Assembly (NCBI GenBank): GCA_963422265.1
Contig: OY729416.1
Span: 224,001-288,000 of the forward strand
DNA length: 64,000 nt
From: Thermodesulfobacteriota bacterium
Lineage (GTDB): Bacteria > Desulfobacterota_D > UBA1144 > Nemesobacterales > UBA2774
Direction of reading: 5' to 3'
Positions 902 to 53,829 of the stretch are shown one piece after another. Under the pieces are notes generated by a model that worked only from the letters and a program-made list of their open reading frames with translations, was not told the DNA's origin and searched no databases. The position numbers and the translations under genes were made by a program. Numbering within the stretch: the stretch's first letter is position 1; each line of letters starts with the position of its first letter.

Positions 902-904
902 ATT

Positions 905-1120
905 TTATTTCATTAAATCATCAAGCGAAACGCCGAGAGCGTCCGCGATTTTTTTGACTGTATTAATTGTCGGGTTAGGGGTTGATCCCGCCTCAATTTT
1001 AGCAATCGTATGAAAAGCCAAATCTGCCTTTTTTGAAAGCACATCTTGAGAAATACCGAGCTTGTTTCTGTATTTCTTTATATTGTTCCCGATTGTGGAT
1101 TTTTCTTTTGACATATTCAT
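905..1120 (-). CDS. XRE-family helix-turn-helix regulator (controller-like), directly upstream of hsdR
   Basis: IGNNIKKYRNKLGISQDVLSKKADL...IAKIEAG...NPTINTVKKIADAL is a typical HTH_3 pattern; 3-bp gap to hsdR start. Confidence 0.9.
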   Translation of the reverse strand: MNMSKEKSTIGNNIKKYRNKLGISQDVLSKKADLAFHTIAKIEAGSTPNPTINTVKKIADALGVSLDDLMK

Positions 1121-1131
1121 ATAGTTTTACA

Positions 1132-1572
1132 CTGGGCGGCAATTTATCACAAGCTGAATATACCGCTAAAAAACACAAGCTCATTCTCGCAAAAAAGGAT
1201 TTGGAAGAAAAAATCACCGCTTTTGGGCGAAAGAGCAATAATCGGTTCGAACTTGCTATAAACTTCATAAAAGAAGCCAACCAAGCCGAAAAATGCGCTC
1301 AACAAGAAAATCCCGAAAGGATTCGGGGTTTTCTCAAAAAGATTGGTTCGAACTTCCGCATTGCCGACCGCACGCTGGCGTGCGACTTCAAAAATGCCTT
1401 TAAAATAGCGGAGAAATACCATGCCGAGGCGCTTTGCGCCGAGGCAACCTCTTACGATTTCGCAAAAAGTGAAAATTGGCGGAGGGAGTGGGATTCGAAC
1501 CCACGAGAGCCGTTTGACTCTACTGGTTTTCGAGACCAGCGCTTTCGTCCACTCAGCCATCCCTCCCACTAG
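1132..1572 (+). pseudogene. Probable C-terminal remnant of a large serine recombinase, frame running into the antisense of tRNA-Ser
   Basis: Coiled-coil-like LSQAEYTAKKHKLILAKKDLEEKI...FIKEANQAEK...FLKKIGSNFRI ending WRREWDSNPR (antisense tRNA). No catalytic N-terminus or credible start. Family assignment is from recalled resemblance. Confidence 0.55.
1477..1566 (-). tRNA. tRNA-Ser(CGA)
   Basis: Reverse complement GGAGGGATGGCTGAGTGG...CTGGT-CT-CGA-AA-ACCAG, long variable arm, GGTTCGAATCC, ends CCTCCGCCA; 90 nt. Confidence 0.96.
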
Positions 1573-1664
1573 GTAGAAAGATAAACTATCAAACCCTTTA
1601 TATTTAGCAACTAGTAATGCTGACGCCGTGCTAAACCATACTAGATAATGTAAACTTTTCCGTA

Positions 1665-3557: not shown

Positions 3558-3565
3558 TTAAGACC

Positions 3566-4315
3566 ATGGGCAAGAGTTTTGAGTTCTTAAAGACTAGTCT
3601 TGGGTTGTCAGAACAGGATCGGGTGGATGAGTTGGTGCTGAACTCCCCTTTTAATTATAATGAGCAGCTCCTCCTGGCAATTCCTAATGACGTTCCGGAG
3701 CCTAATGCAAAGCGTCGTCCTGATCATGCCAAACGAAATTATGCCTCCTGTATCGTGTCTATTATTAAACAAGCGGTACAGGCTTCAAGGGGTAATGCCC
3801 TTATACTCTTTACCTCTTATTCCCTCCTCAATTCTGTATATGAGGATGTTCATGAGGAGCTAGAATCAAACGGAATAATGATTCTAAAACAAGGGCTACT
3901 TACAAGACGAAGGCTTTTGGATAAACTTAGAGTAGAACACGGTTCGGTTCTATTCGCAACAGATAGCTTTTGGGAAGGGGTTGACGTTCCTGGGGATTCT
4001 CTGAGACTAGTTGTAATAACGAGGCTTCCTTTCAGAGTTCCTACGGATCCTGTTATAGAGGCGCGTATAGAGGATATGGAGGCTCAGGGTATAAATTCGT
4101 TTTTGAATTATAGTGTTCCGGTAGCAGTTCTGAAGTTCAAGCAAGGTTTTGGGAGGCTTATAAGAACAAAGACTGACCGTGGCGCTGTGCTGGTTTTAGA
4201 CCGTAGGATAATAAGCAAGTTTTATGGAAAGTATTTTCTTGAGTCTCTCCCCGAATGTAGGAGCATTATAGGCAAATCCGACAATATAATAAAACAGCTT
4301 AGGGGCTTTTATTAG
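3566..4315 (+). CDS. DinG/YoaA helicase C-terminal RecA2 half (continuation in another frame)
   Basis: SPFNY, LFTSY, ATDSFWEGVDVPG, RLPF, KQGFGRLIR motifs IV-VI. Confidence 0.85.
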   Translation: MGKSFEFLKTSLGLSEQDRVDELVLNSPFNYNEQLLLAIPNDVPEPNAKRRPDHAKRNYASCIVSIIKQAVQASRGNALILFTSYSLLNSVYEDVHEELESNGIMILKQGLLTRRRLLDKLRVEHGSVLFATDSFWEGVDVPGDSLRLVVITRLPFRVPTDPVIEARIEDMEAQGINSFLNYSVPVAVLKFKQGFGRLIRTKTDRGAVLVLDRRIISKFYGKYFLESLPECRSIIGKSDNIIKQLRGFY

Positions 4316-4350
4316 TTTTAAGTATGAGGATAGAAGCTGTAAGCTAACAA

Positions 4351-5127
4351 CTATCTTGTGTTTAGAGCCTTTGCTATTTTTCTTACTAAGACGCGCGGCG
4401 TCAGTCTGTTTAGGAACGGCACGATCCCCGCTTTAAATCCAGGTATCACTATGGTCTTACCTTTTCTGAAGCCTTCATAGCCTGCTTTTACTACTGGCTC
4501 GACGTCAAGCAGACTGACCTTAAACAGGAGTGAGTCGTCAAGATGTGATTTTTCTCCAAACTCAGTCCTAACCGGACCCGGAGCTAAACACGAGATTTGA
4601 ATGTTAGGGTTTGTGATTTCCTCTGCCAATGCTTCCGTAAATGAAAGCACGTAAGCCTTTGTGGCGTAATAGACGGCTAGGTAAGGTCCCGGCTGAAAAC
4701 CCGCGAGCGACCCTACGTTCAATATGCCGCCGTAACCCCTTTCTATAAATCCTGGAAGAAAGAGTCTAGTAAGATTGGTAAGTGCCATCACGTTAACCCG
4801 TATCATGTCTAGCTGGTGTTCGGTGTCTAGCTCGGCAATTGCTCCTTTAGTGCCGAATCCGGCGTTATTTACCACTACGTCTATATCTATGCCCTCTTCG
4901 CTTAGACGGTTGAAAATTTCCACGGGCGCTGAACTTTCGGACAGGTCTTTTGCTAAAACGTGAACGTTAATTCCATGTTTAGTTTTGAGCTCTTCCGATA
5001 GTTGGTTAAGCCTGTCCTCCCTTCTAGCAACGAGCACCAGATCCGACCCGTCTTTGGCAAAAAGTTTAGCGAACTCCAATCCAATCCCCGATGACGCCCC
5101 TGTTATTAGAACAGTTTCTTTCGCCAT
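4351..5127 (-). CDS. Short-chain dehydrogenase/reductase
   Basis: TGASSGIG, NNAG, YYATK; ATG at 5127 preferred over the track start. Confidence 0.92.
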   Translation of the reverse strand: MAKETVLITGASSGIGLEFAKLFAKDGSDLVLVARREDRLNQLSEELKTKHGINVHVLAKDLSESSAPVEIFNRLSEEGIDIDVVVNNAGFGTKGAIAELDTEHQLDMIRVNVMALTNLTRLFLPGFIERGYGGILNVGSLAGFQPGPYLAVYYATKAYVLSFTEALAEEITNPNIQISCLAPGPVRTEFGEKSHLDDSLLFKVSLLDVEPVVKAGYEGFRKGKTIVIPGFKAGIVPFLNRLTPRVLVRKIAKALNTR

Positions 5128-5386: not shown

Positions 5387-7819
5387 ATGCCGACGCCATC
5401 TCAGATTTTACCAGTCAACATTGAAGACGAGATGAAGGATTCCTATCTTAGCTACTCGATGAGCGTTATTGTCGGGCGTGCTCTGCCTGACGTTAGAGAT
5501 GGGTTAAAACCCGTTCATAGGCGGATTCTCTACGGGATGGATAAGGTTGGTAACCAGTGGAACAGACCTTACAAAAAATCCGCGAGAATCGTAGGTGACG
5601 TTATGGGTAGATACCATCCCCACGGGGACGCCGCGATTTATGATACGCTCGTCCGCATGGCGCAGGATTTCTCGATGCGCTATACGCTGGTAGATGGACA
5701 AGGAAACTTTGGGTCTATTGACGGCGATCCTCCCGCGGCAATGAGATATACTGAGGTCAGGCTAGATAGAATCGCAAGCGAGATGCTTGATGACCTGGAC
5801 AAAGACACGGTTGACTTTGTGCCTAATTATGACGGTGGCGAGCAAGAGCCTGTAGTCCTTCCTTCTAAAATCCCAAATCTTTTATTGAATGGTTCATCCG
5901 GAATTGCAGTTGGCATGTCCACGAATATACCACCTCATAACCTGGCCGAATTGGTGGATGCCGTAGTTGCGCAGATAAAGAATCCGGATATATCGCTTGA
6001 TGAACTTATGACGCACCTGCCTGGACCTGATTTCCCTACGGGTGGCTTCATCACAGGGAGAAGTCCGATTAGGGATGCGTATGAAACAGGACGAGGCATA
6101 ATACGCGTTAGGGCTAGAGCTAAAATAGAGAAGCAGAAGAAGGGCGACAGAGAAATAATTATAGTAAGCGAAATACCATATCAGATAAACAAAGCAAAGC
6201 TGATAGAGCGTATCGCCGATTTGGTCAAAGAAGATAGGATAAAAGGTATTTCTGATATAAGGGATGAGTCGGATAGAGAAGGTATAAGGGTAGTAATAGA
6301 AATTAAGCGCGGGGAAGTTGCCGAGGTCGTATTGAACCAGTTATATAAGCATACTCCAATGGATACTTCTTATGGCGTTATTATGCTGGCGCTGGTAAGG
6401 AATCAGCCCCGTGTTCTTTCGCTAAGAGATACAATTAACCATTTTATAGTCCACCGAAAAGAGGTTGTTACGAGAAGGACCCAATATGAACTCAGAAAAG
6501 CGGAAGCAAGGCTTCATATCCTTGAAGGTTTAAAAATAGCACTTGATAGCATTGATGAAGTCATAGAGCTTATCAGAAAATCTGAGCGTCCCAGCGCGGC
6601 AAAAACCAAGCTTATGTCGAGACTCGGACTTACTGACGTTCAGGCTCAGGCGATTTTAGACATGCGTCTTCAGCGCCTCACTGCCATTGAAATGGACAAG
6701 ATTTTGGATGAAAGAAGGGAGCTTATCTCCACAGTGAAAAGATTGAATGAGGTTTTAGCGGACGAGAATCTAATACTTGGTATTGTTACGGAAGAATTAA
6801 CGGAAATCAAAGACCGTTATGGCGACGTAAGAAGAACTGAGATTTTAGATAGCACCGAAGAACTTTCATTAGAAGACCTAATAGCCGATGAGGATATGGT
6901 TGCAACCATAACTCACGAAGGTTATATCAAGACTACTTCGCTAAGCATCTATAGGGCGCAGAAGAGGGGTGGCAAGGGAAGGACCGGAATGACGACGAAG
7001 GATATGGACTTTGTCGAAACTTTATTTATCGCTTCTAAGCACAACTACGTATTATTCTTCTCGAATCTGGGTAAATGCTACTGGCTCAAGGTTCATGAGC
7101 TCCCCGAGGCCGGACCTACGGCTAGGGGTAAGGCTTTGGTAAATTTGCTTAGTCTCGCTTCACGAGAGAAGGTAGCAGCGGTGCTTCCGATTACCAATTT
7201 CGATGACAGCAAATACGTGCTTATGGCAACTAAGAATGGAATTGTCAAGAAAACGAGCCTCACGTCATATTCAAGGCCGCGAGCGGGTGGTATCATTGCC
7301 CTTAATATACGTGATGAGGACGAGTTAATAGCTGCTAAGCTCACAAGCGGTGGCGATGAAATACTGCTTACCTCGCATTTCGGGCAGGCAATTAGATTTA
7401 GGGAAGGTAAGGTGAGGGACATGGGAAGGGGCGCTACAGGGGTTATAGGTATAAAGCTTGCTTCTGGGGATGAAGTAGTAAGCTTGGAGGTTGTAGATAA
7501 TCCTGACGCCCAGGTTCTGACGGCAACGGAAATGGGCTATGGAAAACGGACCTTGGTATCTAGCTATAGGCTTACCAATAGGGGTGGTAAGGGGGTGATT
7601 GCCATAAAGACCACCGGCAAGAACGGCAGGGTCGTAAGCGCTTTTCAAGTAGCTAACAACACTCAAATCATGATGATAGCTACCCACGGTGGCAAGGTGA
7701 TACGTATGAACGTTTCTGGAATAAGAGAATGCGGAAGAAATACCCAGGGAGTCAAGCTTATAGATCTTGAGCCTGACGAGCGCGTCGCCGCCGTGGCAAA
7801 GGTAGTTGAAAGAGAGTGA
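5387..7819 (+). CDS. gyrA: DNA gyrase subunit A
   Basis: [22 protein letters not shown], GyrA-box QKRGGKG, C-terminal pinwheel repeats. Confidence 0.97.
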
Positions 7820-7822
7820 ACG

Positions 7823-8317
7823 TTGATTAGAGAGATAGAGAATATATTTCTTGATTTTAAGGGATATGGGTGTTTTGCTTGTGATCCGAGGAATGAACTT
7901 GGACTTCGCCTTAAATTCTACGCTAACGATGAAAAAGGGGAGGTCTTTACTAAATTTATACCTGAAAAGCACCTAGAGGGTTTTCCCGGTATTCTACACG
8001 GCGGAATTCAATGTGCCCTAGTGGACGAGGTAGCTTTTTGGGCTATGTTCGACAGACTACACAGGATAGCGCTTACCGCTAAGTTGAATATGGAGTTTCT
8101 AAGACCCGTGGATGCGTCCGCTGAATTAACAATAACGGGTAAGGTAGTTGAAGCTAAAGGGCGCAGGGTAAAGGTTAGGGTGGATATTTTTAATGGAGAG
8201 GAAAAGGTTTGCACAAAGAGCGAGGTTGATTACACTATATCAAGTAGGGAATTGGCTTATAAAATCATGGGTAAAGATAGGTTCACCGAACAATTTCAAA
8301 AGTATCTGGAAGATTGA
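7823..8317 (+). CDS. PaaI-family hotdog thioesterase
   Basis: CFAC..N..GL and GFPGILHGGIQCALVDE. Confidence 0.85.
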   Translation: MIREIENIFLDFKGYGCFACDPRNELGLRLKFYANDEKGEVFTKFIPEKHLEGFPGILHGGIQCALVDEVAFWAMFDRLHRIALTAKLNMEFLRPVDASAELTITGKVVEAKGRRVKVRVDIFNGEEKVCTKSEVDYTISSRELAYKIMGKDRFTEQFQKYLED

Positions 8318-8925
8318 AGATGTTAAAACTTTACGATCACCCGCTATCTGGAAACTCTTATAAATCAAGGCTAACATTGAGCCACCTGGGCGTGGAGTAT
8401 GAGAGAATCTGCGTTGACGTATTCAAAGGTGAACAGCACAGCGCCGAGTTCACCGCGTTAAATCCGAATAACAAGATACCTGTTCTGGTAGATGGTGGCT
8501 TTGTTATTTGGGAATCTAACGCAATCCCATTATATTTGGCTAAGAAATATGCACCGAACCCAATTTTTCCTGAGGACATTGAATGCTTTGGCTTAGTAGC
8601 TCAGTGGCTTCTCTTCGGTAAAACTACGATTGACCCTAATCTCGCTATGGCACGGGCTTTAACCCGCTTTGTCTCTCCCGAAGAACGCGATGACAAGGAG
8701 CTTGACAGGTTAAGGACGCAAGGCAGGTTAGCACTTAACGTTCTTGACGGTTATTTGAGAAACAACGATTTTCTTGCGAGATCTTATTCAATTGCGGATA
8801 TATGCTGCTACCCTTACGTTAATTTGGCTGAAGAGGGTGGGGTAAGTCTTTCAGGTTATCCGTCGGTGTTAGCTTGGTGCAAGCGAATACAGGAACAACC
8901 CGGATACGTTTCTATGGAAGATTAG
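8314..8925 (+). CDS. Glutathione S-transferase
   Basis: SGNSYK, LNPNNKIPVL, WESNAI, YSIADI. Confidence 0.92.
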   Translation: MKMLKLYDHPLSGNSYKSRLTLSHLGVEYERICVDVFKGEQHSAEFTALNPNNKIPVLVDGGFVIWESNAIPLYLAKKYAPNPIFPEDIECFGLVAQWLLFGKTTIDPNLAMARALTRFVSPEERDDKELDRLRTQGRLALNVLDGYLRNNDFLARSYSIADICCYPYVNLAEEGGVSLSGYPSVLAWCKRIQEQPGYVSMED

Positions 8926-8968
8926 CCTAAGGTGGCAAGCAAAGGCTTGTTTAGGAGTTGTGTTGTTG

Positions 8969-9042
8969 AGCGGGAAACGGGATTCGAACCCGCGACCTTC
9001 TCCTTGGCAAGGAGACGCTCTAGCCAACTGAGCTATTCCCGC
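8969..9042 (-). tRNA. tRNA-Gly(GCC), CCA not encoded
   Basis: Reverse complement GCGGGAATAGCTCAGTTGGCTAGAGCG-TCTCC-TT-GCC-AA-GGAGA-AGGTCGCGGGTTCGAATCCCGTTTCCCGCT, followed by CAA. Confidence 0.96.
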
Positions 9043-9056
9043 TTCTCAGAAACCTA

Positions 9057-9085
9057 AACATACAAAGACCAAGGCTGTTTGTCAA
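9057..9085 (-). promoter_or_regulatory. Sigma70-like promoter of tRNA-Gly
   Basis: TTGACA-N17-TATGTT on the minus strand just upstream of the tRNA. Confidence 0.6.
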
Positions 9086-9121
9086 GGATTCTAATCTTGC
9101 CCCTTTCATAATTTTGATACA

Positions 9122-10264
9122 ATGAATCGATTGGACAGAAAATCTATATTATCTAGGGTCAAAAGAGCTATTATCAAAATAGGGAGCAGCGTCTTGACCG
9201 ATGCCGAAGGCAGCTTATCCGTTGAAGTCTTTGATAAAGTAGCTTCACAGGTCTCACAAGCGCGCTCAAAGGGGATTGACGTTGTTCTCGTCTCTTCGGG
9301 CGCTATTGCTTCGGGCATGAAAAAGCTCAGACTTGATAAAAAGCCCGAAGAAACTTCTATGAAGCAGGCAATCGCCGCCTGTGGGCAGAGCGCTCTTATG
9401 TGGAATTATGAGAGAGCGTTCTCGGTCTATGGTCGTCACGTTGCTCAGATTCTCCTTACGCATGATGGACTAGCTGATAGAAAAAGATTCTTAAATGCGC
9501 GAAAGACGCTTTTAACTTTACTAGATATGGGGGCTATTCCGATTGTAAATGAGAATGATACAGTCGCCGTTGACGAGATTATACTAGGGGATAACGATAA
9601 CCTCGCAGCGCTTGTAACATCTTTGATAGAGGCTGATATTCTCATAATGTTGACCGACATAGAAGGTTTGTATAGCAAGGATCCCAGAAGTAACGATGAC
9701 GCGGAGCTTATATCACTTATAGATGAAATAGGTGAAGAGATTGAAAGCGTTGCCGGGGAGACCCTAGGAAGAACTACGACAGGTGGAATGAGAACTAAGA
9801 TACAAGCGGCGAGAAGCGCGGCTGCGCTCGGCGTGCCTACGGTTATTGCAAATGGCAAAAGGGAAGGCGTGCTTAAGGGGATATTTGACGCAAGGGACGT
9901 CGGTACCATATTTCTTCCTGCGGTGAAGAGCCTAAAGGGAAGGAAGCATTGGATAGCTTTCACACTTAAATCCGCGGGTGAGGTTGTAATTGACGGAGGG
10001 GCGAGCAAGGCTATTGTCTCTTTGGGCAAGAGCCTTCTTCCCTCGGGCATCATAGGGGTGCGAGGCGATTTTGGGGTTGGCGATTCGGTAACGTGCGTTG
10101 ATGAGAACGGCTCTAAAATTGCAAAGGGGCTAACTTCATATGGCTCCGACGATATTAGAAAGATCATGGGCTCTAAGACTTCAGAAATAGAGCGTATTCT
10201 AGGCTATAAATACGCGGAAGAGGTTATTCATAGGGACGATCTAGCTATAATAACTAATGGTTGA
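9122..10264 (+). CDS. proB: Glutamate 5-kinase
   Basis: IKIGSS, VSSGAIA, NENDTV, GDND, TGGMRTK, C-terminal PUA domain. Confidence 0.96.
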   Translation: MNRLDRKSILSRVKRAIIKIGSSVLTDAEGSLSVEVFDKVASQVSQARSKGIDVVLVSSGAIASGMKKLRLDKKPEETSMKQAIAACGQSALMWNYERAFSVYGRHVAQILLTHDGLADRKRFLNARKTLLTLLDMGAIPIVNENDTVAVDEIILGDNDNLAALVTSLIEADILIMLTDIEGLYSKDPRSNDDAELISLIDEIGEEIESVAGETLGRTTTGGMRTKIQAARSAAALGVPTVIANGKREGVLKGIFDARDVGTIFLPAVKSLKGRKHWIAFTLKSAGEVVIDGGASKAIVSLGKSLLPSGIIGVRGDFGVGDSVTCVDENGSKIAKGLTSYGSDDIRKIMGSKTSEIERILGYKYAEEVIHRDDLAIITNG

Positions 10265-11289
10265 TTAGGAAAAGTCAGTTCATGCTTAGTTTTGATTCAA
10301 AGAAGCTTTCCTTTGGTTTCATAACTCTAACTGTGTGTTTAGTCTCGGTGCTCGCGTATAGGGGCGTTACACGCTATATAAACGAAGTCAGCTTTATATC
10401 AAAAGATGCGATCTTCCTAATTACACGGGGGCAGGGGCTCAAAATCATATCTTATAGGCTCAAAGAAGAAGGTGTCATACAACATGATAGATTATTTATC
10501 CTTTACGTAGTTAGCAAGGGCTGGCAAAACGCTTTGAAGGCGGGTGAATATAGGTTTCAAAAGGGAGAAGCCTTGTCTCAGGTTGCAAGTAGGATAGTAA
10601 GGGGCGACGTAATTAGCTACAGCGTAACAATCCCTGAGGGGCTTAACGTATTAGAAGTTGCGGGGCTTCTTCATGATAAGAACGTAATTGATAGGGATGA
10701 TTTTCTTAGTTTGCTAAACAACGAGGAGTTACGCAAAGAGCTAATCGGCGATAATCCAATAGGTTACGAAGGTTACCTTTTTCCAGACACCTATTTCTAC
10801 AATAAGGGAGTTGTGCCGGAAGAGTTTATTAGGGGCATGATAAAAAGGTTCAATACCGTTTATGAAGGATTTGGAGAAGAAAGACGACGGGTTCATCTTA
10901 GCGATAATGAGATACTTACGCTCGCCTCCATAATTGAAAAGGAAACGGGGGATGATTCTGAACGCCCTCTTATCTCGGCGGTATTCCATAACCGCATGAA
11001 GAGGAGAATGAGGCTTGAGAGCGATCCGACTGTAATCTACGGCTTGGGGTCGAATTCCAAAGGGAATTTGACTAAGCGTGATTTAGCTACCTACACGGAG
11101 TATAATACCTATTTGATTAGGGGGCTTCCTCCTGGACCGATAGCTAACCCCGGAAAAGAGTCCATAGCTGCCGCGTTGAAACCAGCAAACGTCAAGTATC
11201 TCTACTTCGTTTCAAAGGGGGATGGGACGCACCAATTTTCTACTAACTACGAGTCTCACCGCAGGGCAGTCTATAAATACCAGAGATAA
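10261..11289 (+). CDS. mltG: Endolytic transglycosylase MltG
   Basis: N-terminal TM, TIPEG, EGYLFPDTY, LASIIEKE, LESDPTVIY, GLPPGPIANPG. Confidence 0.95.
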   Translation: MIRKSQFMLSFDSKKLSFGFITLTVCLVSVLAYRGVTRYINEVSFISKDAIFLITRGQGLKIISYRLKEEGVIQHDRLFILYVVSKGWQNALKAGEYRFQKGEALSQVASRIVRGDVISYSVTIPEGLNVLEVAGLLHDKNVIDRDDFLSLLNNEELRKELIGDNPIGYEGYLFPDTYFYNKGVVPEEFIRGMIKRFNTVYEGFGEERRRVHLSDNEILTLASIIEKETGDDSERPLISAVFHNRMKRRMRLESDPTVIYGLGSNSKGNLTKRDLATYTEYNTYLIRGLPPGPIANPGKESIAAALKPANVKYLYFVSKGDGTHQFSTNYESHRRAVYKYQR

Positions 11290-47078: not shown

Positions 47079-47287
47079 ATATTGTTAACTCCATTATGGT
47101 TTTCTAAACGTCACCTTATTCTACCGTAGAAATATGGCGTCCTGCAATGGGTTTGTCCGTTTTATCTCTCCTTAATGGGAGTATAGTCCTATGGGAAGAG
47201 CTATATTAGCTTTATTTATTGAATTCTACTTAGGTCTATGTCTCATCTTTTCCAGTTGGTGTTGCGGTTTTTGTTGAGAGTTTGCTC

Positions 47288-48441
47288 CAAGCCCCTCGGG
47301 AGAGGGAATGGGTGAGGGCTTCTCTTCACGTATTACCTCCCCCCCTTGGACACAGGGTCAGGGCACTTCCTTATCTTCTCCCCCTTTAGAGACAGGGACT
47401 AGGGCGCTTCCTTATCTTCTCCCCCTTTAGAGAAGGGGGATACAGGGGGATTTGATAGGGCATCGGGGAACGAACCCCTTCCTTATTATAGTTTGAAAGA
47501 TGGTTTGGCACGATTGGAAAGGGGCGATAGCTCCTGTCTGAGTTGGCTCTTCAGGGTGGTATCCTGAGCGGTCAGCGAGCTGGTTGCACTGTCCCGAGCG
47601 GTTGGTGAACCTGCCGAACCATGTAGAAGCGGGTGAGCTTGTCCAATCCATCTGAACTGTTCAGCTCCCCAGCTCCCCTGAAAACCTTACAAACTTATAC
47701 CTTTTAGCGATTTTCTGGATATTGGAAAGATGGTTTGGCACGGAGTTAAGCCTTTTAAAAACAGAAAACATAATTATTACAGGCTCTTCTTTATCATTTT
47801 CGCCCAATACAAACAAAATCCCCACCAACCACAAAGATTCCCCCGACCACCCATCAGGGCGACCATCCTTCGACAGGCTTAGGACATCGCTTACCAACTA
47901 GAGGCACCCCTACAACCACATCCGTCCTCACTTCGTTTTTCTGAATCCTCTACTCATCCCCCCAAGCATTGCCTCTATTCTTGCCTGCCCCTCCTGCAGC
48001 CCAGACAATCTGGCATCCATAGCCTTTGTCAGTCTTAATCTCCCTAACGTCTTCTCTATATGATCTATCTTCACTCTCAATACGTCTTGCTCAGTCATCC
48101 CCCACCTCCTTTATACCTCATCGTTACCCTGAATTTTCTGTCAAGCTTTTTAAAAAAACTTTATACCTCATTATACCCCAATCATAGCCCATCATTCAAT
48201 CCTAAAAATCCTAGTTCAGACCTCCTTTCCCTCTGAGAGAGGAATACAAGGTGAGGCGCTTCCTTACATACTCCCCCTTTAGAAAAGGGGGATTTAGGGG
48301 GATTTGATCTTTATCCTTCCAATCACAGCTCATCATTCAATCATTCAAATCACAGTTCAGACATCCTTCCTCCCCCTGGGAGAGGGTCAGGGTGAGGGCG
48401 CTTCCTTATCTTCTCCCCCTTTGGAAAAGGGGGATACAGGG
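47288..48441. repeat. Mosaic of REP-like palindromic repeats
   Basis: Several copies of CTTCCTTATCTTCTCCCCCTTTAGAGAAGGGGGATACAGGGGGATT-like, GGGAGAGGGnnnGGGTGAGGG, CCTTCGACAGGCTTAGGAC and AATC...AGTTCAGAC units. Confidence 0.8.
47928..48098 (-). pseudogene. Degraded coiled-coil ORF (56 aa) between REP clusters
   Basis: RBS GAGGTG; MTEQDVLRVKIDHIEKTL...LSGLQEGQARIEAML; weak resemblance to 13802-14176. Confidence 0.35.
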
Positions 48442-48565
48442 AAGCTGTGCTACCCTCTTGATCTCTTCAGTTGTGGATAGCGGGCAGGCTTCAGTCAGTT
48501 ACAATTATTCGGCGGGTCATACACGAGTTCTATCTCGGGATCATGACACACAGAAGGAGGTTCGT

Positions 48566-48724
48566 ATGGCAATAATATTTGCAATAATAGTAACCGTGTT
48601 ATTGATATTCGCATGTATCAGCATCATTCACCTATCTATAGCGTTACTTAATCACGTTATATGTACAGGTACTGATAGGTTATTTAGCAATCGCCGTAGA
48701 GGACGGCAAGGATGGAAACCATAA
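48566..48724 (+). CDS. 52-aa hydrophobic protein with basic tail, encoded inside the CRISPR array
   Basis: AAGGAGGT RBS; MAIIFAIIVTVLLIFACISIIHLSIALLNHVICTGTDRLFSNRRRGRQGWKP. Confidence 0.65.
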   Translation: MAIIFAIIVTVLLIFACISIIHLSIALLNHVICTGTDRLFSNRRRGRQGWKP

Positions 48725-48739
48725 ACTAAGGAGGTTCCA

Positions 48740-48883
48740 ATGAAAGAATATACACTGCAAGAATTTTTAGATGTCTCCATGACAAGACGAGATGGTGACA
48801 TACTCTTCACCTCGGCGACGGGCGAGGATATCCGTATCAGGTTGTGGATAGCGGGCAGGCTTCAGTCAGTTACAATATCATAA
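48740..48883 (+). CDS. 47-aa ORF starting in the long interval and reading through repeat 2
   Basis: AAGGAGGT RBS; MKEYTLQEFLDVSMTRRDGDILFTSATGEDIRIRLWIAGRLQSVTIS. Confidence 0.45.
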   Translation: MKEYTLQEFLDVSMTRRDGDILFTSATGEDIRIRLWIAGRLQSVTIS

Positions 48884-49190
48884 TATGTTGCCGTCCCCCC
48901 CCGCGTGTTGTGGATAGCGGGCAGGCTTCAGTCAGTTACAATATATTCCAATTACGGTTTTGCAACGGGTCGGTTGTGGATAGCGGGCAGGCTTCAGTCA
49001 GTTACAATCAAGTCCCTGACGGGCCAATAGAGCCAAGCGTTGTGGATAGCGGGCAGGCTTCAGTCAGTTACAATCAAGTCCCTGACGGGCCAATAGAGCC
49101 AAGTGTTGTGGATAGCGGGCAGGCTTCAGTCAGTTACAATTGCTTGCTCTCGACTGCCTTGCTGGTAAGGGTTTTAAGCCCCTCAACAAA

Positions 49191-49535
49191 TTAAAAAAGA
49201 GAGATTTGTTGAGGGGCTCCTTCCAATTTCTTCCGTTTTTTTCCATAGAAAACCTGCATTCGTCCAAACTGTTTATCCGTGATAGTAATAATTCTGACCT
49301 CTCCTCTGGGTGGCAATTCATCTCTGACACGCCCCGAGTGGACATAAGCGTTTTCTTCACTTGCGCAATGTCTGGCATATACTGAAAATTGTAACATTAT
49401 AAAACCGTCTTGTATTAGCGACTTTCTGAATTTTCCATAAGAACGCCGATCCTGTTTGGTATCAGTAGGCAGGTCAAACATTACTAATATCCACACTGTT
49501 CTATATCCTCCGAAAGCCACTGTTCTATACCTCAA
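49191..49535 (-). CDS. cas2: CRISPR-associated Cas2 (type II)
   Basis: WILVMFDLPT, FRKSLIQDGFIMLQFSVYAR, ITDKQF. Confidence 0.96.
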   Translation of the reverse strand: MRYRTVAFGGYRTVWILVMFDLPTDTKQDRRSYGKFRKSLIQDGFIMLQFSVYARHCASEENAYVHSGRVRDELPPRGEVRIITITDKQFGRMQVFYGKKRKKLEGAPQQISLF

Positions 49536-50433
49536 GTCTCATCTGTTTATTATCAAGAAGTTGTGGGATCATCAGGGAATCCACGCCATCGGAGAAGGCT
49601 TTTTTCAAACTAGAAGCCGTATGCTGGGTTGCGACCATAAGGGGCAGTTTTCTGGTTTCAAGCAGAACGTCTTCTGATAAGATAGAAAGTAGAGGCATTT
49701 TTGTTCTCTTGTTTAGCTCGGACTTTCCGGCTTCTACCAATTCATAGACTCGTCTGTCAACAAGGGGGCGCAATGGCTCCATAACGTCATCGGCAAGACA
49801 CATAGGATTGTATTGGTTGTGGTGATGGATTCCGAGGGCAGGATGAAGTCCAGTTCCGCATAAAGCCCGCGCTACCGATGCTCTTACTATGCTATATCCA
49901 TAGTTGAGTAGGGAGTTTATTCCTTCCTCTTTATAATTCCTGGTAAAACTTTTGCCAAACAGCGTTATCCAATATACTCTCGCCGCCTGTGATTCTATAT
50001 TTTCAGTATCTCCACTATTAACCCTTTTTTTCATTGGGGGCAGGGAAGTTGGGTCTTTATTAAAGAAAAGCAGGGTTCGGATTTGAGATTCTATTTTAGC
50101 GACAATTATTTTCTGCCAAAGCCTTTTCTTCAAGGGTTTTTTAACTCCTGTTTGTATATTAAGCACTCTACTGTGAACTGAGTTGCCCGAAAGGGGTAGC
50201 AGGACCGAAACCGGAAGATGTTTGTTGTCGCAGAATACTACTATGCAATTGTTGTGCTGACACGAGGCGATAAGGCTTTGGGAAATGGTAATGAAGGGGT
50301 TGGCAAGTATAAGAATTCCCATATCTTCTACGGGAACGCTTTCGTCTTTTTCACCCTCCCTTTTCACAATCATTTGACGGTTTTTCAAGTGAAGATACGC
50401 CGGATTGCTTACTTCAATGATTCGCTTGATCAT
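49525..50433 (-). CDS. cas1: CRISPR-associated Cas1 (type II)
   Basis: SGDTENIESQAARVYW, INSLLNYGYSIVR, LGIHH, LADDVMEP. Confidence 0.97.
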   Translation of the reverse strand: MIKRIIEVSNPAYLHLKNRQMIVKREGEKDESVPVEDMGILILANPFITISQSLIASCQHNNCIVVFCDNKHLPVSVLLPLSGNSVHSRVLNIQTGVKKPLKKRLWQKIIVAKIESQIRTLLFFNKDPTSLPPMKKRVNSGDTENIESQAARVYWITLFGKSFTRNYKEEGINSLLNYGYSIVRASVARALCGTGLHPALGIHHHNQYNPMCLADDVMEPLRPLVDRRVYELVEAGKSELNKRTKMPLLSILSEDVLLETRKLPLMVATQHTASSLKKAFSDGVDSLMIPQLLDNKQMRLEV

Positions 50434-53400
50434 TGTTTGCTAGTCGGTGGTGTCCTGAGTTTGCCGAAGGGAGGATGGGAGTGAGACGACGTCCGAGAGC
50501 GTTTATAGTCTCTTTTTTGATTTTGAAGTCGGTCATCAGTTTAGAAGGTGCGACTGCTAATTCCAATTCTTTCTTTTCATTAAGAGGAAGTTTGTTGAAT
50601 TCTTTGTCAGATGTTGAGTCTGTATGTATTCGTAATGGCAGTTTTATACAATTGTTCTTTGAATCCCTATCAATCTTTCTAACCTTATAGAACTTTCTTT
50701 CGCCATTTTCTCTGATACTCACTGTGTCTCCCACACATAAGCTCATAACAAACTCCCAATCTTCCCCGTGATTGGTCTTCACAATCGGTTCTTTCAGAAT
50801 CCTTGCTCTTTCTGTAGCTTCCATAGTAGTTACAACAGTCCCTTTGTATTTTCCATTATTTCGGTTTTTCAAAATTTCCACATGATGGTTGTTTCCATAG
50901 GTAAAAACGCCAATGGTTTTCTCATCCTCATTTTTTTTGTAAAAGTGAAGATTTTCATTGGTCTTGTCAGATTGCCAAACCCGAGCGCGTCTGACAACAT
51001 CCCCCGTTTTTGGATGCTTGAAAGATTCTTCTTTCAATCTCTTTTGAGCGGTTTCTAGTCCACCATTCATATTGACATGTTGTTCAAAGCCTTCCTTGAT
51101 TACAGGACACACTATGTTTTTAAGGTCCTTGTCCGACATAGCAGTTAGATTTTTACGCACAACAATCCCTTTTCTGCCATTCTCTTCTCTTATTCCATAA
51201 GCTGTATCTTTGTGGAAAGCCCCAGTCAGCTTTCTATTCGTAGAATGAGATACAATCATTCGATTTGCTGCTTCGGTCAGGCTATCTCTCAGATTATTCA
51301 GAATAGAAGGCACTTCCATTCCATGTTCGGGAGAGACGTTGTCGTCATTCGCATACGATGCCAAGCGAACTATTTTCTGGTAGAGGCTGCGGTTTGTGAG
51401 GGCTATGACGGTTGCGTCAATAGCATGGTGGCGATGGTCGGCGCGGTTCTTTTCCCCGGTTTCTCCGAGGATGTTGTTCAGTCCCCATTGGTGACGAAGC
51501 CAGCTTGTGGCGCCCCCTTTTGTAAAAGAAACGTCACAGCCAAGCGTCTTCATGTATTTACCCGTTTCTCTTGCTATGTAGCGTGTGTCGCTTAACTGAT
51601 TGTTGATGAAATCATCTATATTATCCATTTCTTTTGTCATTACCCGTTTGCGTTTTGGATCCGGATAATCTTTTATGGTGTTTTCAATGATCTCCCATTG
51701 TTCGGTATTGCCAAAAGCCTCCCAAGGGCTTTTGTTGCCTTTCTTCTGATTTTCTTGAGCAAAACATACGACTTTATTCATATAAGAGTTGTCAAGGCTT
51801 CTGCTATACGGCAGTATGTGGTCTATCTCAACGTCTGCCGACCAAAGGTCAGTCAGAGAGATTGTTTCTCCGCTGTAGGAACATTGCTGCTTGCTTTCTG
51901 TCCAGAGCCTGTATTTCAGCTTGTCTTGATGGCTTATGTGTGTCCTCAATTGTAGATGGGGGTTCGCATTACGAATTTCATTGTATTTTTCTTCTGCTTC
52001 CTCATTCGCCTTCGTGTTAGCCTCCTGAATTTTTTTATTTCTTTGATACCTTTTGGTATTCATTTCCAAATCACGAGCCATTTCTATGCGTATTGATGCT
52101 GGCTTTCCATACTCTTTGATTATTGCATTTACAACACGACGGACCTCATAAAGCGCCTTTGTAACAATGGGGTTTGGTATAAATGGTATTTCTCCAAGAG
52201 TGTCGTCATTTCCGTCTGGTTGCTTGATAATCTCTTTATAGCCGGCTGCTTGAACAGCGCCCAATTCTTCTTTCCTGTCGCTTTCCCTGCTGTAAATTCT
52301 GCCTTCTTTAAGGTGGGGAAGAATGTTGTTTATTGCCTTTAATGAGAGATTGCCATATCCCTCTTCCAATTCCAGTACCGCAAGTTTTACGGCTTTTTCC
52401 AAATCAAACTTCCAGTAGTTTTGAAGCCGTTTTTTCAGTCCCTTCTTGGATTCGTAGGAAATCAAGTCTTCAACAAGTTGTTTCTGTATCTTCTCATCCC
52501 ACGAGTCCCACACATCCCCGATAATTTCCCTGACTTCATAGGCTGTTCGGTTTCCCTGAATTCCCTTTCTGTTTTTTCCTTCAACCTTTTCCAGATTGAA
52601 TTTCGTTTTTTTATTCAGATTGAGAAGGTCTTTCTTTTTGAGAGCCGTCCATGTTAGATTTCTTGTTTTTTCGAGTGTTTCAGCTATAAGGCTTTTCTGT
52701 TCTAATGTGGGTTTTGCATCTACTTCTCCAGTTTCAAGGTCATACCAACTCAAATTATTTATATCCTGCCAGTAGCGGAATTGTTGAGACTCGAGTCGTC
52801 CATGCTCTATTCTTCTTTTGTTCGGTTCTAGCGAGCAGTTACCTATCGTTTTCTTATCCCATCTTACGGGTCGTTGAAAAAATATGATTTCTTCAATTGT
52901 TTCTTTTACTTCTTTTGTATAGAGCTCGGGGTTTAGTGCAGACTGTTTTTGAAAGATTATTTCGAGCTCCTCCTGATACATTTTTCTATCAGTTCTTCGG
53001 TCGTGATGTTCCCCCCTGTTACGCGTGCGATCTTGGTTTTTGAGATATTCTCCCAAAGTCCTCATTCCGCTTTCTTTTATTTCTCCGCAAAGTTTTTTAA
53101 TATCCTTTTTGAAAGCGCCTTCATCTTTATCAGATTTTGTTGTTTCATCTTCAATCTTAAGAATCTCCTGCGATTCCGGGTCCTCGCGCAGATCTCCAAA
53201 TCCTGTTTTGCGATTACTGAGGAATCCCCTCCGCGTTCCTAAATGCAGGACTGCACGTCCGAATTCGTGAGGATTAAGCTCCTTATCTAGCGCTTTTGCT
53301 CTTAGTTCGTAAGGGTCTCCGAGTTTGTTGAGTTCAACTTCAGGGTTGGGGTTGTTCTTCAGGGTTTCTGGTAAAAATCCCTTGCTTATAAGATAGTTTC

Positions 53401-53638
53401 TCAATCGCGCCTTGCGTCTGTGGCGGCGTTCTATAACTCGCCTTGAAAGGCGCGCTCTCCTGCGATCCTGATTTTTAGGTTTAGGAGTTTTATCTTCAAC
53501 AGAACGGATAAAGATACGGCTTCCACAACCAATAAATCTTATGGGTTCTCCGTTGTTTTCCTCAACTATACTCCAGCCAATAGAGTTCGTTCCTACATCA
53601 AGACCCAGAGCGTATTCAGAGAGTTTTGGTTTTTTCAT
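50414..53638 (-). CDS. cas9: Type II-C Cas9 (1074 aa)
   Basis: RuvC-I GLDVGTNSIGW, Arg-rich bridge helix, RuvC-II IEMARD, HNH EIDHILPYSRSLDNSYMNKV, RuvC-III HHAIDA; no csn2 or cas4 in the locus. Confidence 0.97.
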   Translation of the reverse strand: MKKPKLSEYALGLDVGTNSIGWSIVEENNGEPIRFIGCGSRIFIRSVEDKTPKPKNQDRRRARLSRRVIERRHRRKARLRNYLISKGFLPETLKNNPNPEVELNKLGDPYELRAKALDKELNPHEFGRAVLHLGTRRGFLSNRKTGFGDLREDPESQEILKIEDETTKSDKDEGAFKKDIKKLCGEIKESGMRTLGEYLKNQDRTRNRGEHHDRRTDRKMYQEELEIIFQKQSALNPELYTKEVKETIEEIIFFQRPVRWDKKTIGNCSLEPNKRRIEHGRLESQQFRYWQDINNLSWYDLETGEVDAKPTLEQKSLIAETLEKTRNLTWTALKKKDLLNLNKKTKFNLEKVEGKNRKGIQGNRTAYEVREIIGDVWDSWDEKIQKQLVEDLISYESKKGLKKRLQNYWKFDLEKAVKLAVLELEEGYGNLSLKAINNILPHLKEGRIYSRESDRKEELGAVQAAGYKEIIKQPDGNDDTLGEIPFIPNPIVTKALYEVRRVVNAIIKEYGKPASIRIEMARDLEMNTKRYQRNKKIQEANTKANEEAEEKYNEIRNANPHLQLRTHISHQDKLKYRLWTESKQQCSYSGETISLTDLWSADVEIDHILPYSRSLDNSYMNKVVCFAQENQKKGNKSPWEAFGNTEQWEIIENTIKDYPDPKRKRVMTKEMDNIDDFINNQLSDTRYIARETGKYMKTLGCDVSFTKGGATSWLRHQWGLNNILGETGEKNRADHRHHAIDATVIALTNRSLYQKIVRLASYANDDNVSPEHGMEVPSILNNLRDSLTEAANRMIVSHSTNRKLTGAFHKDTAYGIREENGRKGIVVRKNLTAMSDKDLKNIVCPVIKEGFEQHVNMNGGLETAQKRLKEESFKHPKTGDVVRRARVWQSDKTNENLHFYKKNEDEKTIGVFTYGNNHHVEILKNRNNGKYKGTVVTTMEATERARILKEPIVKTNHGEDWEFVMSLCVGDTVSIRENGERKFYKVRKIDRDSKNNCIKLPLRIHTDSTSDKEFNKLPLNEKKELELAVAPSKLMTDFKIKKETINALGRRLTPILPSANSGHHRLANNDQANH

Positions 53639-53701: not shown

Positions 53702-53829
53702 TAGTGATTGTAACTGACTGAAGCCTGCCAAACAATTTCTGTTTTGCTATTCATAACAAGAAGCAAATGTTTCGCAGGATAGCCTTTCAAGGTAAACCTA
53801 AGCGCCTCCCAGCGGGGCGCTTTTTTTTT
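53702..53829 (+). ncRNA. tracrRNA
   Basis: 53707-53729 is the exact complement of the repeat's last 23 nt; 53746-53757 GCTATTCATAAC pairs with the first 12 nt (two G-U); followed by AAG and an intrinsic terminator. 5' end estimated. Confidence 0.9.
53800..53829 (+). terminator. Intrinsic terminator of tracrRNA
   Basis: AAGCGCCTC-ccagc-GGGGCGCTT followed by a T run. Confidence 0.85.

What the first reader, a model, noticed from the sequence alone, without database searches (positions are those of the whole stretch)
48506..48840. 335-bp gene-bearing interval between two perfect CRISPR repeats
Seen: both flanking repeats are identical to the others, the interval is about 11 times a normal spacer, and I see no degenerate repeat, IS end or target duplication in it. 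It holds AAGGAGGT plus a complete 52-aa ORF (about 30 hydrophobic residues, then RRRGR), co-oriented with the array and about 60 nt downstream of the repeat's TACAAT. Established: Neisseria type II-C repeats carry -10 promoter elements; type I toxins and small phage membrane proteins have this hydrophobic-plus-basic shape; CreTA shows CRISPR loci can be guarded by toxins. Inference: either an oversized Cas1-Cas2 capture of phage DNA that became an expressed gene, or a toxin/effector cassette whose mRNA is controlled by tracrRNA, RNase III and Cas9.
Basis: partly seen in the sequence, partly recalled or inferred. Interest (0 to 1): 0.85.

Follow-up and report, generated by a model that had tools for sequence, protein, structure and literature searches.

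The report
Oversized gene-fragment spacer in CRISPR array
One "spacer" of a small CRISPR-Cas9 array in an uncultured bacterium is 334-335 bases long instead of 30 and carries a tiny membrane-peptide gene plus the cut-off start of a second gene; it looks like a stray piece of unknown mobile DNA lodged at the old end of the array, which makes it a curiosity and not a new defence system.

Summary
Six identical 36-nt type II-C repeats lie beside cas2-cas1-cas9 and a tracrRNA. The first interval is 335 bp; the other four are 30 bp. Contigs from three public runs in two studies span it, but all three give 334 bp.

The interval holds two perfect AAGGAGGT+ATG starts, a complete 52-codon membrane-peptide ORF, and a second ORF cut by the next repeat. 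It has no degenerate repeat, no inverted ends and no unusual RNA structure.

Nothing similar turned up in the rest of the genome, in 119 genomes of the phylum, or in the phage, plasmid, viral, metagenome and protein collections searched. Three normal spacers also matched nothing in the viral collection, so this host's mobile elements are unsampled.

The conserved leader lies on the cas2 side, so the long unit is the oldest, trailer-end unit. Of 227 intervals in 13 related arrays, 223 are 28-34 nt. Two gaps hold insertion sequences, one holds SIR2-HerA genes and one holds a decayed repeat.

Best reading (0.45): a passenger fragment of foreign DNA, most likely integrated untrimmed by Cas1-Cas2. 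A non-Cas insertion scar is nearly as likely. A Cas9-controlled toxin cassette has no support.

Earlier notes of this scan report kilobase spacers in other bacteria; I did not test them.

The parts
48470..48505 (+). Repeat 1, the trailer-end (cas-distal) terminal repeat. It is identical to the other five and ends in the -10-like TACAAT.
   Evidence: trailer assignment
48506..48840 (+). Oversized interval: 335 nt in the window, 334 nt in the contigs of three runs, which lack the base at 48840. It is unique in the genome.
48507..48575 (+). Possible 3' tail of an upstream gene: an open frame from the first bases of the interval to a TAA that overlaps the ORF1 start. It is not statistically distinguishable from chance.
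   Evidence: ORF 48471-48575; reading
48554..48561 (+). Shine-Dalgarno AAGGAGGT, 4 nt before the ORF1 ATG
48566..48724 (+). ORF1, complete, 52 aa (P0001): an uncharged hydrophobic N-terminal 36 residues and a basic tail. It has no detectable relative (an ORFan).
48728..48735 (+). Second Shine-Dalgarno AAGGAGGT, 4 nt before the ORF2 ATG
   Evidence: direct repeat D3
48740..48840 (+). Head of ORF2 (33 codons), with no stop before repeat 2, so the gene is cut by the repeat
48841..49140 (+). Repeats 2-6 with four 30-nt spacers. Spacers 4 and 5 differ only in their last base.
49141..49210 (+). Leader: the cas2-proximal flank, conserved across nine loci. It includes the hairpin shared with the end of cas2.
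49191..49535 (-). cas2
   Evidence: PF09827, E 5.8e-18
49525..50433 (-). cas1
   Evidence: PF01867, E 5.1e-31
50414..53638 (-). cas9 (1074 aa)
   Evidence: TIGR01865, E 3.5e-199
53707..53829 (+). tracrRNA: a 23-nt perfect anti-repeat, then a 16-nt insert, then a G-U-tolerant match to the start of the repeat, then a hairpin and a run of T. It fixes the + strand as the crRNA sense.
   Evidence: read by eye

Best explanation
The interval is one contiguous 334-335-bp piece of foreign, gene-dense DNA. It holds possibly the tail of one gene, a whole 52-codon membrane-peptide gene, and the head of a third gene cut by the repeat. It sits as the oldest, trailer-end 'spacer' of a small, otherwise normal type II-C array.

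Most likely the locus's own Cas1-Cas2 integrase inserted an untrimmed fragment at the then leader-proximal repeat. That event duplicates the repeat exactly. Four normal 30-nt spacers were added later on the cas2 side. This route is inferred, not shown.

The genes are passengers, not a dedicated cassette. If the repeat's TACAAT acts as a promoter, as in Neisseria, repeat 1 would start an RNA about 5 nt into the interval. That RNA would be an over-long pre-crRNA whose last ~24 nt can still guide Cas9. It would also, by accident, be an mRNA with a strong ribosome-binding site for the peptide. Both of these points are inferences.
For: Both flanking repeats are complete and identical, as full-site integration would leave them.

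The content is contiguous and co-directional. Two near-identical start regions match in 13 of 15 bases, and ORF2 runs into the repeat without a stop.

Its signals are unlike the host's:
- Only 9 of 1033 crude long ORFs carry AAGGAGGT upstream.
- 2 of the genome's 26 AAGGAGGT+ATG sites lie in the interval.
- The CAI of ORF1+ORF2 is 0.74, against a host mean of 0.81 (sd 0.025). That is the 3rd percentile of 3000 host 85-codon chunks.

It is unique in the genome. No significant match was found in 40 relatives by DNA or in 119 other phylum genomes by protein.

There are no IS features or decayed repeats, and no Ku gene, so classical end-joining capture is less likely (with a positive control in B. 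subtilis).

The leader is on the cas2 side. That 70-nt flank aligns gap-free in 9 loci with 23 invariant columns and mean identity 0.69. The distal flank has 0 invariant columns of 143. Decayed terminal repeats lie on the distal side in G075, G086, G074 and G029. This matches passages of PMC12477760 on Neisseria.

The interval is real in nature: it is present in contigs of 3 runs from 2 studies.
Against: The integrase of this clade measures well. 223 of 227 intervals in 13 related arrays are 28-34 nt, and none is in the hundreds of bases.

No protospacer was found, so the PAM could not be tested.

The unit is the trailer-most one. If any of the five units were equally likely to be the aberrant one, that position has a prior of 1 in 5. 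Other interruptions in relatives also sit near the trailer (G088, G086), which hints at end-specific, non-Cas processes.

In the short-read version, the same three bases (TCA) precede both repeat 1 and repeat 2. That is a 1-in-64 coincidence and could mark a homology-based event.

Foreign origin rests on composition from 85 codons and on absence of matches. No source was identified.
Confidence: 0.45

Rival explanations
1. Insertion scar made without Cas1-Cas2. Foreign DNA entered an old spacer or a repeat by illegitimate or homologous recombination, or through a repeat-targeting element (prophage, transposon) that was later mostly deleted, leaving 334-335 bp between two repeats.
For: Arrays of this clade are interrupted by other routes. 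IS21 (IstA/IstB) sits in a spacer in G086, a transposase-like gene with inverted ends and a probable target duplication sits in G075, and a SIR2-HerA pair lies between a lone trailer repeat and the array in G088.

Prophages that integrate into type II-A repeats are described (passages of bioRxiv 10.1101/2020.10.09.333658). Tn7-like elements that target CRISPR repeats are also described (PMC11837452, listing and abstract only).

The trailer flank is packed with a dispersed repeat family that gave 161 BLAST hits in the genome.

The same TCA precedes both repeats in the short-read version.
Against: The interval has no inverted ends, no target duplication, and no transposase or integrase remnant.

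The three reading frames abut each other as in an undisturbed operon, so no internal deletion junction is visible.

No Ku gene is present.

Remnants of a split spacer cannot be recognised without a sister allele.
Confidence: 0.27
2. Native inter-array DNA. The interval is old chromosomal sequence that once separated two arrays or an array and its flank. The distal array has since collapsed to one repeat by repeat-repeat recombination.
For: Lone repeats exist. This genome has an orphan copy with 2 mismatches 610 kb away. G088 has a lone trailer repeat 4.2 kb from its array. Array collapse to a single repeat is described for Neisseria (passages of PMC12477760).
Against: Repeat 1 is identical to the others, whereas old terminal repeats in relatives are decayed.

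The ribosome-binding sites and codon usage are unlike the host's.

ORF2 is cut by the repeat.

No homologue was found in 119 other phylum genomes.
Confidence: 0.1
3. Functional cassette. A repeat-promoter-driven small membrane toxin or effector is kept in the array, for example as an addiction module or abortive-infection effector. Its mRNA ends at the tracrRNA/RNase III site in repeat 2.
For: ORF1 is intact, with a perfect ribosome-binding site, and is co-oriented 60 nt after the repeat's TACAAT.

It is intact in the contigs of all three runs, with one amino-acid change (T36I) in X5.

Its hydrophobic-plus-basic shape resembles type I toxins and holins (from recall, not tested).

All 14 arrays read keep TAnnnT at the repeat's end. 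Type II-C repeat promoters are shown in Neisseria.
Against: The peptide has no relative:
- 0 hits among 1.84 billion representative proteins;
- 0 in the 5.8-billion-cluster word search;
- nothing in Pfam, PHROGs, PADLOC or NCBIfam.

None of 13 related arrays has a comparable unit.

There is no degenerate repeat or partial-match guide of the CreA kind.

The RNA folds no better than shuffles (z -0.16 and -0.69), and there is no Rfam match.

The neighbouring ORF is truncated, as expected of a random fragment.
Confidence: 0.08
4. Assembly artefact: a chimeric join or collapsed repeats created the interval.
For: The assembly has small indel differences from all four runs nearby, at 47951, 48026, 48053 and 48254, and one at 48840 against three runs.
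Against: Contigs of 369-400 letters from X1, X2 and X5 (two studies) run from repeat 1 through the whole interval into repeat 2, with 0-3 substitutions.
Confidence: 0.02

Closest known systems
Canonical type II-C CRISPR-Cas9 arrays (Neisseria meningitidis; PMC12477760, passages read)
   Same: The locus has cas9-cas1-cas2 only, a tracrRNA, and 36-nt repeats ending in a -10-like hexamer. The array is read towards cas2, the leader is on the cas2 side, and four of its spacers are 30 nt.
   Different: One unit is 334-335 nt, about 11 times the ruler length, and carries translation signals and ORFs. Promoter activity of the repeats is not shown for this organism.
Prophage integration into CRISPR repeats (PhiAP1.1 in Streptococcus pyogenes type II-A; bioRxiv 10.1101/2020.10.09.333658, passages read)
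   Same: Foreign DNA ends up flanked by CRISPR repeats, often at the terminal repeat.
   Different: That case is a whole prophage with an integrase and an attP core. Here only 334-335 bp are present, with no integrase, and the fragment does not look like two joined prophage ends.
IS and transposon interruptions of arrays (IS21 in G086 and a transposase-like element in G075 of this study; Tn7-like elements targeting CRISPR repeats, PMC11837452, listing and abstract only)
   Same: Non-spacer DNA lies between perfect repeats of the same repeat family.
   Different: Those inserts are 2.7-3 kb, with transposase genes, terminal repeats and spacer remnants. The interval here has none of these.
CreTA, CRISPR-regulated toxin-antitoxin (PMC9458426 and PMC8501985, abstracts only)
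   Same: A potentially toxic small gene sits physically inside a CRISPR locus.
   Different: CreT is an RNA toxin repressed by a crRNA-like CreA, which is made from degenerate ectopic repeats and acts with type I Cascade. Here the system is type II, no degenerate repeat was found, no guide match of 13 nt or more was found (only the 9-nt complement to spacer 2), and the ORF encodes a peptide.
Arrays with kilobase-long spacers next to cas1-cas2 in Patescibacteria
   Same: Identical repeats bound long pieces of foreign DNA whose genes are cut at the repeat edges.
   Different: In those arrays all spacers are long and no effector is nearby. Here a single long unit sits in a complete Cas9 system with otherwise exact 30-nt spacers.
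Type I toxins and small holins (from recall; no family matched)
   Same: The product is about 50 aa, with one long hydrophobic segment followed by a basic tail.
   Different: There is no sequence relative, no antisense RNA or structured leader, and no lysis-gene context.

Membership tests
Type II-C CRISPR-Cas locus | cas9, cas1 and cas2 with no csn2 or cas4 | tested here: met
   Pfam and NCBIfam hits. In one search, no other ORF of gene-like size lies between the hisS-like gene and the array.
Type II-C CRISPR-Cas locus | tracrRNA with an anti-repeat and a terminator | tested here: met
   A 23-nt perfect anti-repeat at 53707-53729 (+), with a hairpin and a run of 9 T ending at 53829 (read by eye).
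Type II-C CRISPR-Cas locus | Repeat-embedded promoter, so each unit is transcribed on its own | not testable with these tools
   TACAAT ends the repeat, and TAnnnT is kept in all 14 arrays read. No RNA run is listed. The sigma-70 scan needs a -35 element and found none at the repeats.
Canonical Cas1-Cas2 spacer | Flanked by two complete repeats | tested here: met
Canonical Cas1-Cas2 spacer | Length set by the integrase ruler (28-34 nt in this clade) | tested here: not met
   334-335 nt, against 223 of 227 related intervals at 28-34 nt.
Canonical Cas1-Cas2 spacer | Matches a protospacer with a PAM in a mobile element | tested here: inconclusive
   No match was found anywhere. Normal spacers 2, 3 and 4 also gave 0 matches in viral contigs.
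IS / MITE insertion | Terminal inverted repeats, target-site duplication, transposase | tested here: not met
   The best end-to-end inverted match scores 14, against 94 for the IS21 in G086. No transposase domain was found.
Prophage or element integrated at a repeat | Integrase and element genes between attL and attR repeats | tested here: not met
   Only 334-335 bp are present, and the ORFs have no PHROG or Pfam match.
CreTA-like CRISPR-guarding toxin-antitoxin | A crRNA-like antitoxin made from degenerate repeat(s), with a partial match to the toxin's promoter | tested here: not met
   No degenerate repeat lies in the interval or in its flanks (1.2 kb upstream of repeat 1, 120 nt after repeat 6). 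No spacer matches the interval over 13 nt or more; there is only a 9-nt complement to spacer 2.
Type I toxin-antitoxin | A small hydrophobic peptide plus an antisense or structured regulatory RNA, and membership of a known toxin family | tested here: inconclusive
   The peptide has the right shape. There is no family hit, folding z-scores are -0.16 and -0.69, and there is no Rfam match.

The most novel reading that the evidence does not exclude
A canonical type II-C Cas1-Cas2 integrated an unprocessed 334-bp fragment, and the resulting unit was kept because it works twice. Its 3' end serves as a Cas9 guide. Its body serves as a repeat-promoter-driven gene for a small membrane peptide that acts as an abortive-infection effector or as an addiction toxin for the CRISPR locus. 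In short, a spacer turned into an expressed gene. The co-oriented solitary repeats upstream of a lysA-like gene in this genome and of a SIR2-HerA operon in G088 would then be further cases of type II-C repeats used as portable promoters.
Probability: 0.07. Interest if true: 0.8.

Novelty: new variant of a known kind. Interest (0 to 1): 0.4.

Why it matters
If the Cas1-Cas2 route is right, this is a natural record that an ordinary Cas9-system integrase can occasionally insert a fragment ten times the ruler length. It would also show that such a unit persists in wild populations. That would link normal arrays to the kilobase-spacer arrays noted earlier in this scan.

It also shows how type II-C repeats, which carry their own promoters in Neisseria, could switch on whatever lands behind them. 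That gives a simple path from captured DNA to an expressed gene.

If it is only a recombination scar, it is a minor curiosity of array decay at the trailer end.

Tried and rejected
Source hunt, all negative:
- blastn of the interval against phages and plasmids;
- tblastn of ORF1 and of the ORF2 head against phages and plasmids; the best E-values were 5, 8 and 0.5, all read as chance;
- back-translated pattern scans with ORF1 in viral, metagenome and genome contigs; 99, 599 and 600 pattern hits, none confirmed;
- the last 19 nt of the interval in viral contigs;
- the word-index protein search with ORF1, and with ORF2 against longer proteins;
- phmmer against 1.84 billion representatives;
- ESM Atlas: best score 0.82, below the level at which a hit is more than a lead.

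The repeat, with two positions left free, gave 0 matches in metagenome and genome contigs.

Expression: no RNA holder is listed among the runs, so expression is untested.

Run X6 (a third study) carries the same cas2-cas1 and the last repeat, with 3 differences in 590 nt. It has no cover of the interval. It shows one joint from 48505 to 48972 with only 31 letters on the shorter side. Both sides of that joint lie in identical repeats, so I do not read it as an allele without the interval.

Runs X2 and X5 have no cover of spacers 2 and 4. I did not interpret this.

Self-targeting: no spacer matches elsewhere in the genome.

The idea that the interval is a row of decayed repeat-spacer units fails. 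371 is not a multiple of 66, and there is no repeat-like stretch inside.

The single 21-nt DNA match in relative G024 covers the ribosome-binding-site region and was taken as chance.

Literature: searches for 'unusually long spacer' and five similar phrases together with CRISPR found 0 papers. That covers only the held library and only those wordings. Supplements were not seen.

Structure and complex prediction were not used. An ORFan of 52 residues without an alignment would give an uninformative helix.

Full report
THE LOCUS

The window holds a complete type II-C CRISPR-Cas locus. On the minus strand lie cas2 (49191-49535), cas1 (49525-50433) and cas9 (50414-53638, 1074 aa). All three have clear Pfam and NCBIfam hits. 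No csn2 or cas4 is present among the ORFs.

Upstream of cas9, on the plus strand, a 23-nt perfect anti-repeat (53707-53729) is followed by a hairpin and nine T. This is the tracrRNA, and it fixes the plus strand as the crRNA sense. The array is therefore read towards cas2.

The locus lies between a hisS-like gene and two housekeeping-type genes. The genome is one contig of 1.78 Mb with 44% G+C. Earlier notes of this scan call it an uncultured, Dadabacteria-like bacterium; I did not check that label.

THE OBSERVATION

Six identical 36-nt repeats start at 48470, 48841, 48907, 48973, 49039 and 49105. The intervals between them are 335, 30, 30, 30 and 30 nt. The long interval is real in nature. 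Logan contigs of runs X1 (study P1) and of X2 and X5 (study P2) run from repeat 1 through the interval into repeat 2, with 0-3 substitutions. One of these runs may be the source of the assembly, so at least one study is independent.

All three runs lack one base at 48840, which gives 334 nt. Other small indels against all four runs lie just upstream, so the assembly probably has indel errors here. X5 carries C>T at 48672, which by my reading changes Thr36 of ORF1 to Ile.

WHAT IS INSIDE

AAGGAGGT (48554) sits 4 nt before the ATG of a complete 52-codon ORF (48566-48724; P0001). Its first 36 residues carry no charge, and its last 16 have six K/R and one D.

Fifteen bases after its stop, a second AAGGAGGT (48728) and an ATG (48740) open an ORF of 33 codons. 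This ORF has no stop before repeat 2. The two start regions match in 13 of 15 bases.

The first 69 nt of the interval are open in a frame that ends at a TAA overlapping the ORF1 start. This could be the tail of a third gene, but an open stretch of that length is not unusual by chance.

The start signals themselves are not chance. The whole genome has 26 AAGGAGGT+ATG sites on both strands, and two of them are here.

The interval lacks several things that would point to a specific origin:
- It has no repeat-like stretch: the best match is 17 of 36, against a shuffle mean of 17.4.
- It has no inverted ends.
- It folds no better than shuffles on either strand, with z-scores of -0.16 and -0.69.
- It has no Rfam match.

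ORIGIN

The interval occurs once in the genome. It has no significant match in 40 relatives by DNA or in 119 other genomes of the phylum by protein.

It also has no match in the following searches:
- the phage and plasmid collections;
- viral, metagenome and genome contigs;
- the 5.8-billion-cluster protein index;
- 1.84 billion representative proteins searched with phmmer;
- Pfam, PHROGs, PADLOC and NCBIfam.

This silence says little about origin. Normal spacers 2, 3 and 4 also found nothing in the viral collection, so the mobile elements of this host are simply unsampled.

What does point to a foreign source is composition. Only 9 of 1033 crude long host ORFs have the 8-base ribosome-binding site. 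The codon adaptation of the two ORFs is 0.74, which lies at the 3rd percentile of host chunks of equal length. This is suggestive, not proof: only 85 codons are involved, and the host start codons were crudely assigned.

WHICH END OF THE ARRAY

I fetched the arrays beside cas9 orthologues (58-72% identity) in 13 genomes of other families of the same order. None of the 32 genomes of the same family has cas9.

For nine loci (this window and eight of those relatives), the 70 nt between the last repeat and cas2 align without gaps. They have 23 invariant columns and a mean identity of 0.69. The far flank does not align at all, with 0 invariant columns of 143. Decayed terminal repeats lie on the far side in G075, G086, G074 and G029.

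Passages of PMC12477760 say three things about Neisseria meningitidis: the leader-adjacent repeat is the last one in the transcription order, the repeats carry internal promoters, and crRNAs start at the 6th nt of each spacer.

The leader is therefore on the cas2 side, and the long unit is the trailer-most, oldest unit.

HOW UNUSUAL IT IS IN THE CLADE

Of 227 intervals in the 13 related arrays, 223 are 28-34 nt. The four exceptions are:
- a 100-nt gap that contains a decayed repeat (G080);
- 3000 bp of IS21, with IstA and IstB, inserted in a spacer before the last two trailer repeats (G086);
- 2754 bp with a transposase-like gene and inverted ends (G075; the MULE hit is below Pfam's cut-off);
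- 4235 bp carrying an intact SIR2-HerA defence pair between a lone trailer repeat with one mismatch and the array (G088).

Nothing in the hundreds of bases was seen, and nothing resembles ORF1. Arrays here do get interrupted, often near the trailer. The window's unit differs from those cases in being small, free of mobility signatures and cut through a gene.

MECHANISM

Shown:
- exact repeats on both sides;
- a contiguous fragment with real start signals;
- trailer position;
- presence in wild populations.

Inferred:
(a) The fragment is foreign.
(b) It entered by full-site integration of an untrimmed fragment by Cas1-Cas2, which explains the exact repeat duplication. Four normal acquisitions followed at the leader.
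(c) If the repeat's TACAAT is a promoter, repeat 1 drives an RNA from about 48511. All 14 arrays read keep TAnnnT at that place, but the same bases also pair with the tracrRNA. That RNA would be both a long pre-crRNA and an mRNA for ORF1. Because a type II guide is the repeat-proximal end of the spacer, the last ~24 nt could still guide Cas9.

Against (b):
- The clade's ruler is precise.
- The unit sits at the trailer.
- In the short-read version, the same TCA precedes both repeats.

The absence of Ku makes classical end-joining capture less likely.

I put (a)+(b) at 0.45, a non-Cas insertion scar at 0.27, native inter-array DNA at 0.10, a functional cassette at 0.08 and an artefact at 0.02.

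COMPARISON WITH WHAT IS KNOWN

The locus is a member of type II-C. The unit fails the length criterion of a canonical spacer.

It is not an IS or MITE, because it has no ends and no transposase. It is not an integrated prophage of the PhiAP1.1 kind. It is not CreTA-like: that module is defined by degenerate ectopic repeats that make a Cascade-guiding antitoxin RNA (abstracts of PMC9458426 and PMC8501985), and none is present here.

Earlier notes of this scan describe arrays in Patescibacteria in which all spacers are kilobases long and genes are cut at the repeats. They make the Cas1-Cas2 route more plausible, but I did not test them.

I found no paper describing a spacer of hundreds of bases with the wordings tried. 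This covers the held library only, and supplements were not seen.

VERDICT

This is a one-off variant inside an ordinary system. It is of moderate interest as a natural record of a mis-measured or non-canonical insertion, and as a possible example of a repeat promoter switching on captured DNA.

Noticed in passing
own genome G000:C1:882423-882458 (-), outside the window; locus L008: An orphan copy of the CRISPR repeat with 2 mismatches lies 610 kb from the array. It sits between a DsbA-like gene and a gene that looks like lysA by eye (no family search was run). It is co-oriented with that gene, and its TACAAT ends 43 nt before the ATG, so a repeat-borne promoter could drive it. Ten related genomes showed no repeat copy outside their CRISPR loci.
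   Followed up: partly
window 49009-49038 and 49075-49104: Spacers 4 and 5, the two nearest the leader, are identical except for their last base (C versus T). That base is the one next to the repeat, which is the PAM-proximal seed end in type II. This is either a duplicated unit with one mutation or a re-acquisition of the same protospacer from an escape variant.
   Followed up: no
L036 (G088) 238-4508: A lone trailer repeat with 1 mismatch is followed after 7 nt by a 69-aa ORF and an intact SIR2-HerA defence pair, all co-oriented with the crRNA sense. The 25-repeat array follows. No mobility gene was seen in the 4.2 kb.
   Followed up: partly
L038 (G086) 8015-11014 and G086:C1:175103-175138; L034 (G075) 6699-9452: An IS21 (IstA/IstB, with triple terminal repeats) sits inside a spacer near the trailer of G086, and a further decayed repeat lies 3 kb beyond. 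A transposase-like 606-aa gene with inverted ends and a probable target duplication sits mid-array in G075.
   Followed up: partly
window 47250-48450: The 1.2 kb on the trailer side of the array is non-coding and built from a dispersed ~54-nt element with a C/G-rich hairpin. That element gave 161 BLAST hits in the genome (103 of 40 nt or more) and very high contig depth in all four runs.
   Followed up: partly
window 47951, 48026, 48053, 48254: The contigs of all four runs carry 1-2 extra bases at these places compared with the window. The assembly therefore probably has small indel errors here. ORF calls in 47900-48260, including the 56-aa ORF at 47928-48098 (-), are unreliable.
   Followed up: no
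window 53730-53761: The tracrRNA anti-repeat is split. After 23 perfect bases comes a 16-nt insert that can form a small hairpin. A 12-nt stretch then pairs with the start of the repeat through two G-U pairs (read by eye).
   Followed up: no
window 48701-48709 and 48888-48896: Nine bases at the end of ORF1 are perfectly complementary to the middle of spacer 2. About 0.06 such matches are expected by my rough count. The match lies outside the seed, so I took it as chance.
   Followed up: no
window 50414-53638 and phylum-wide: cas9 of this type is found in 17 of 119 other genomes of the phylum, all in three other families. It is found in 0 of 32 genomes of the window's own family, so the locus has a patchy distribution and may have been transferred.
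   Followed up: no
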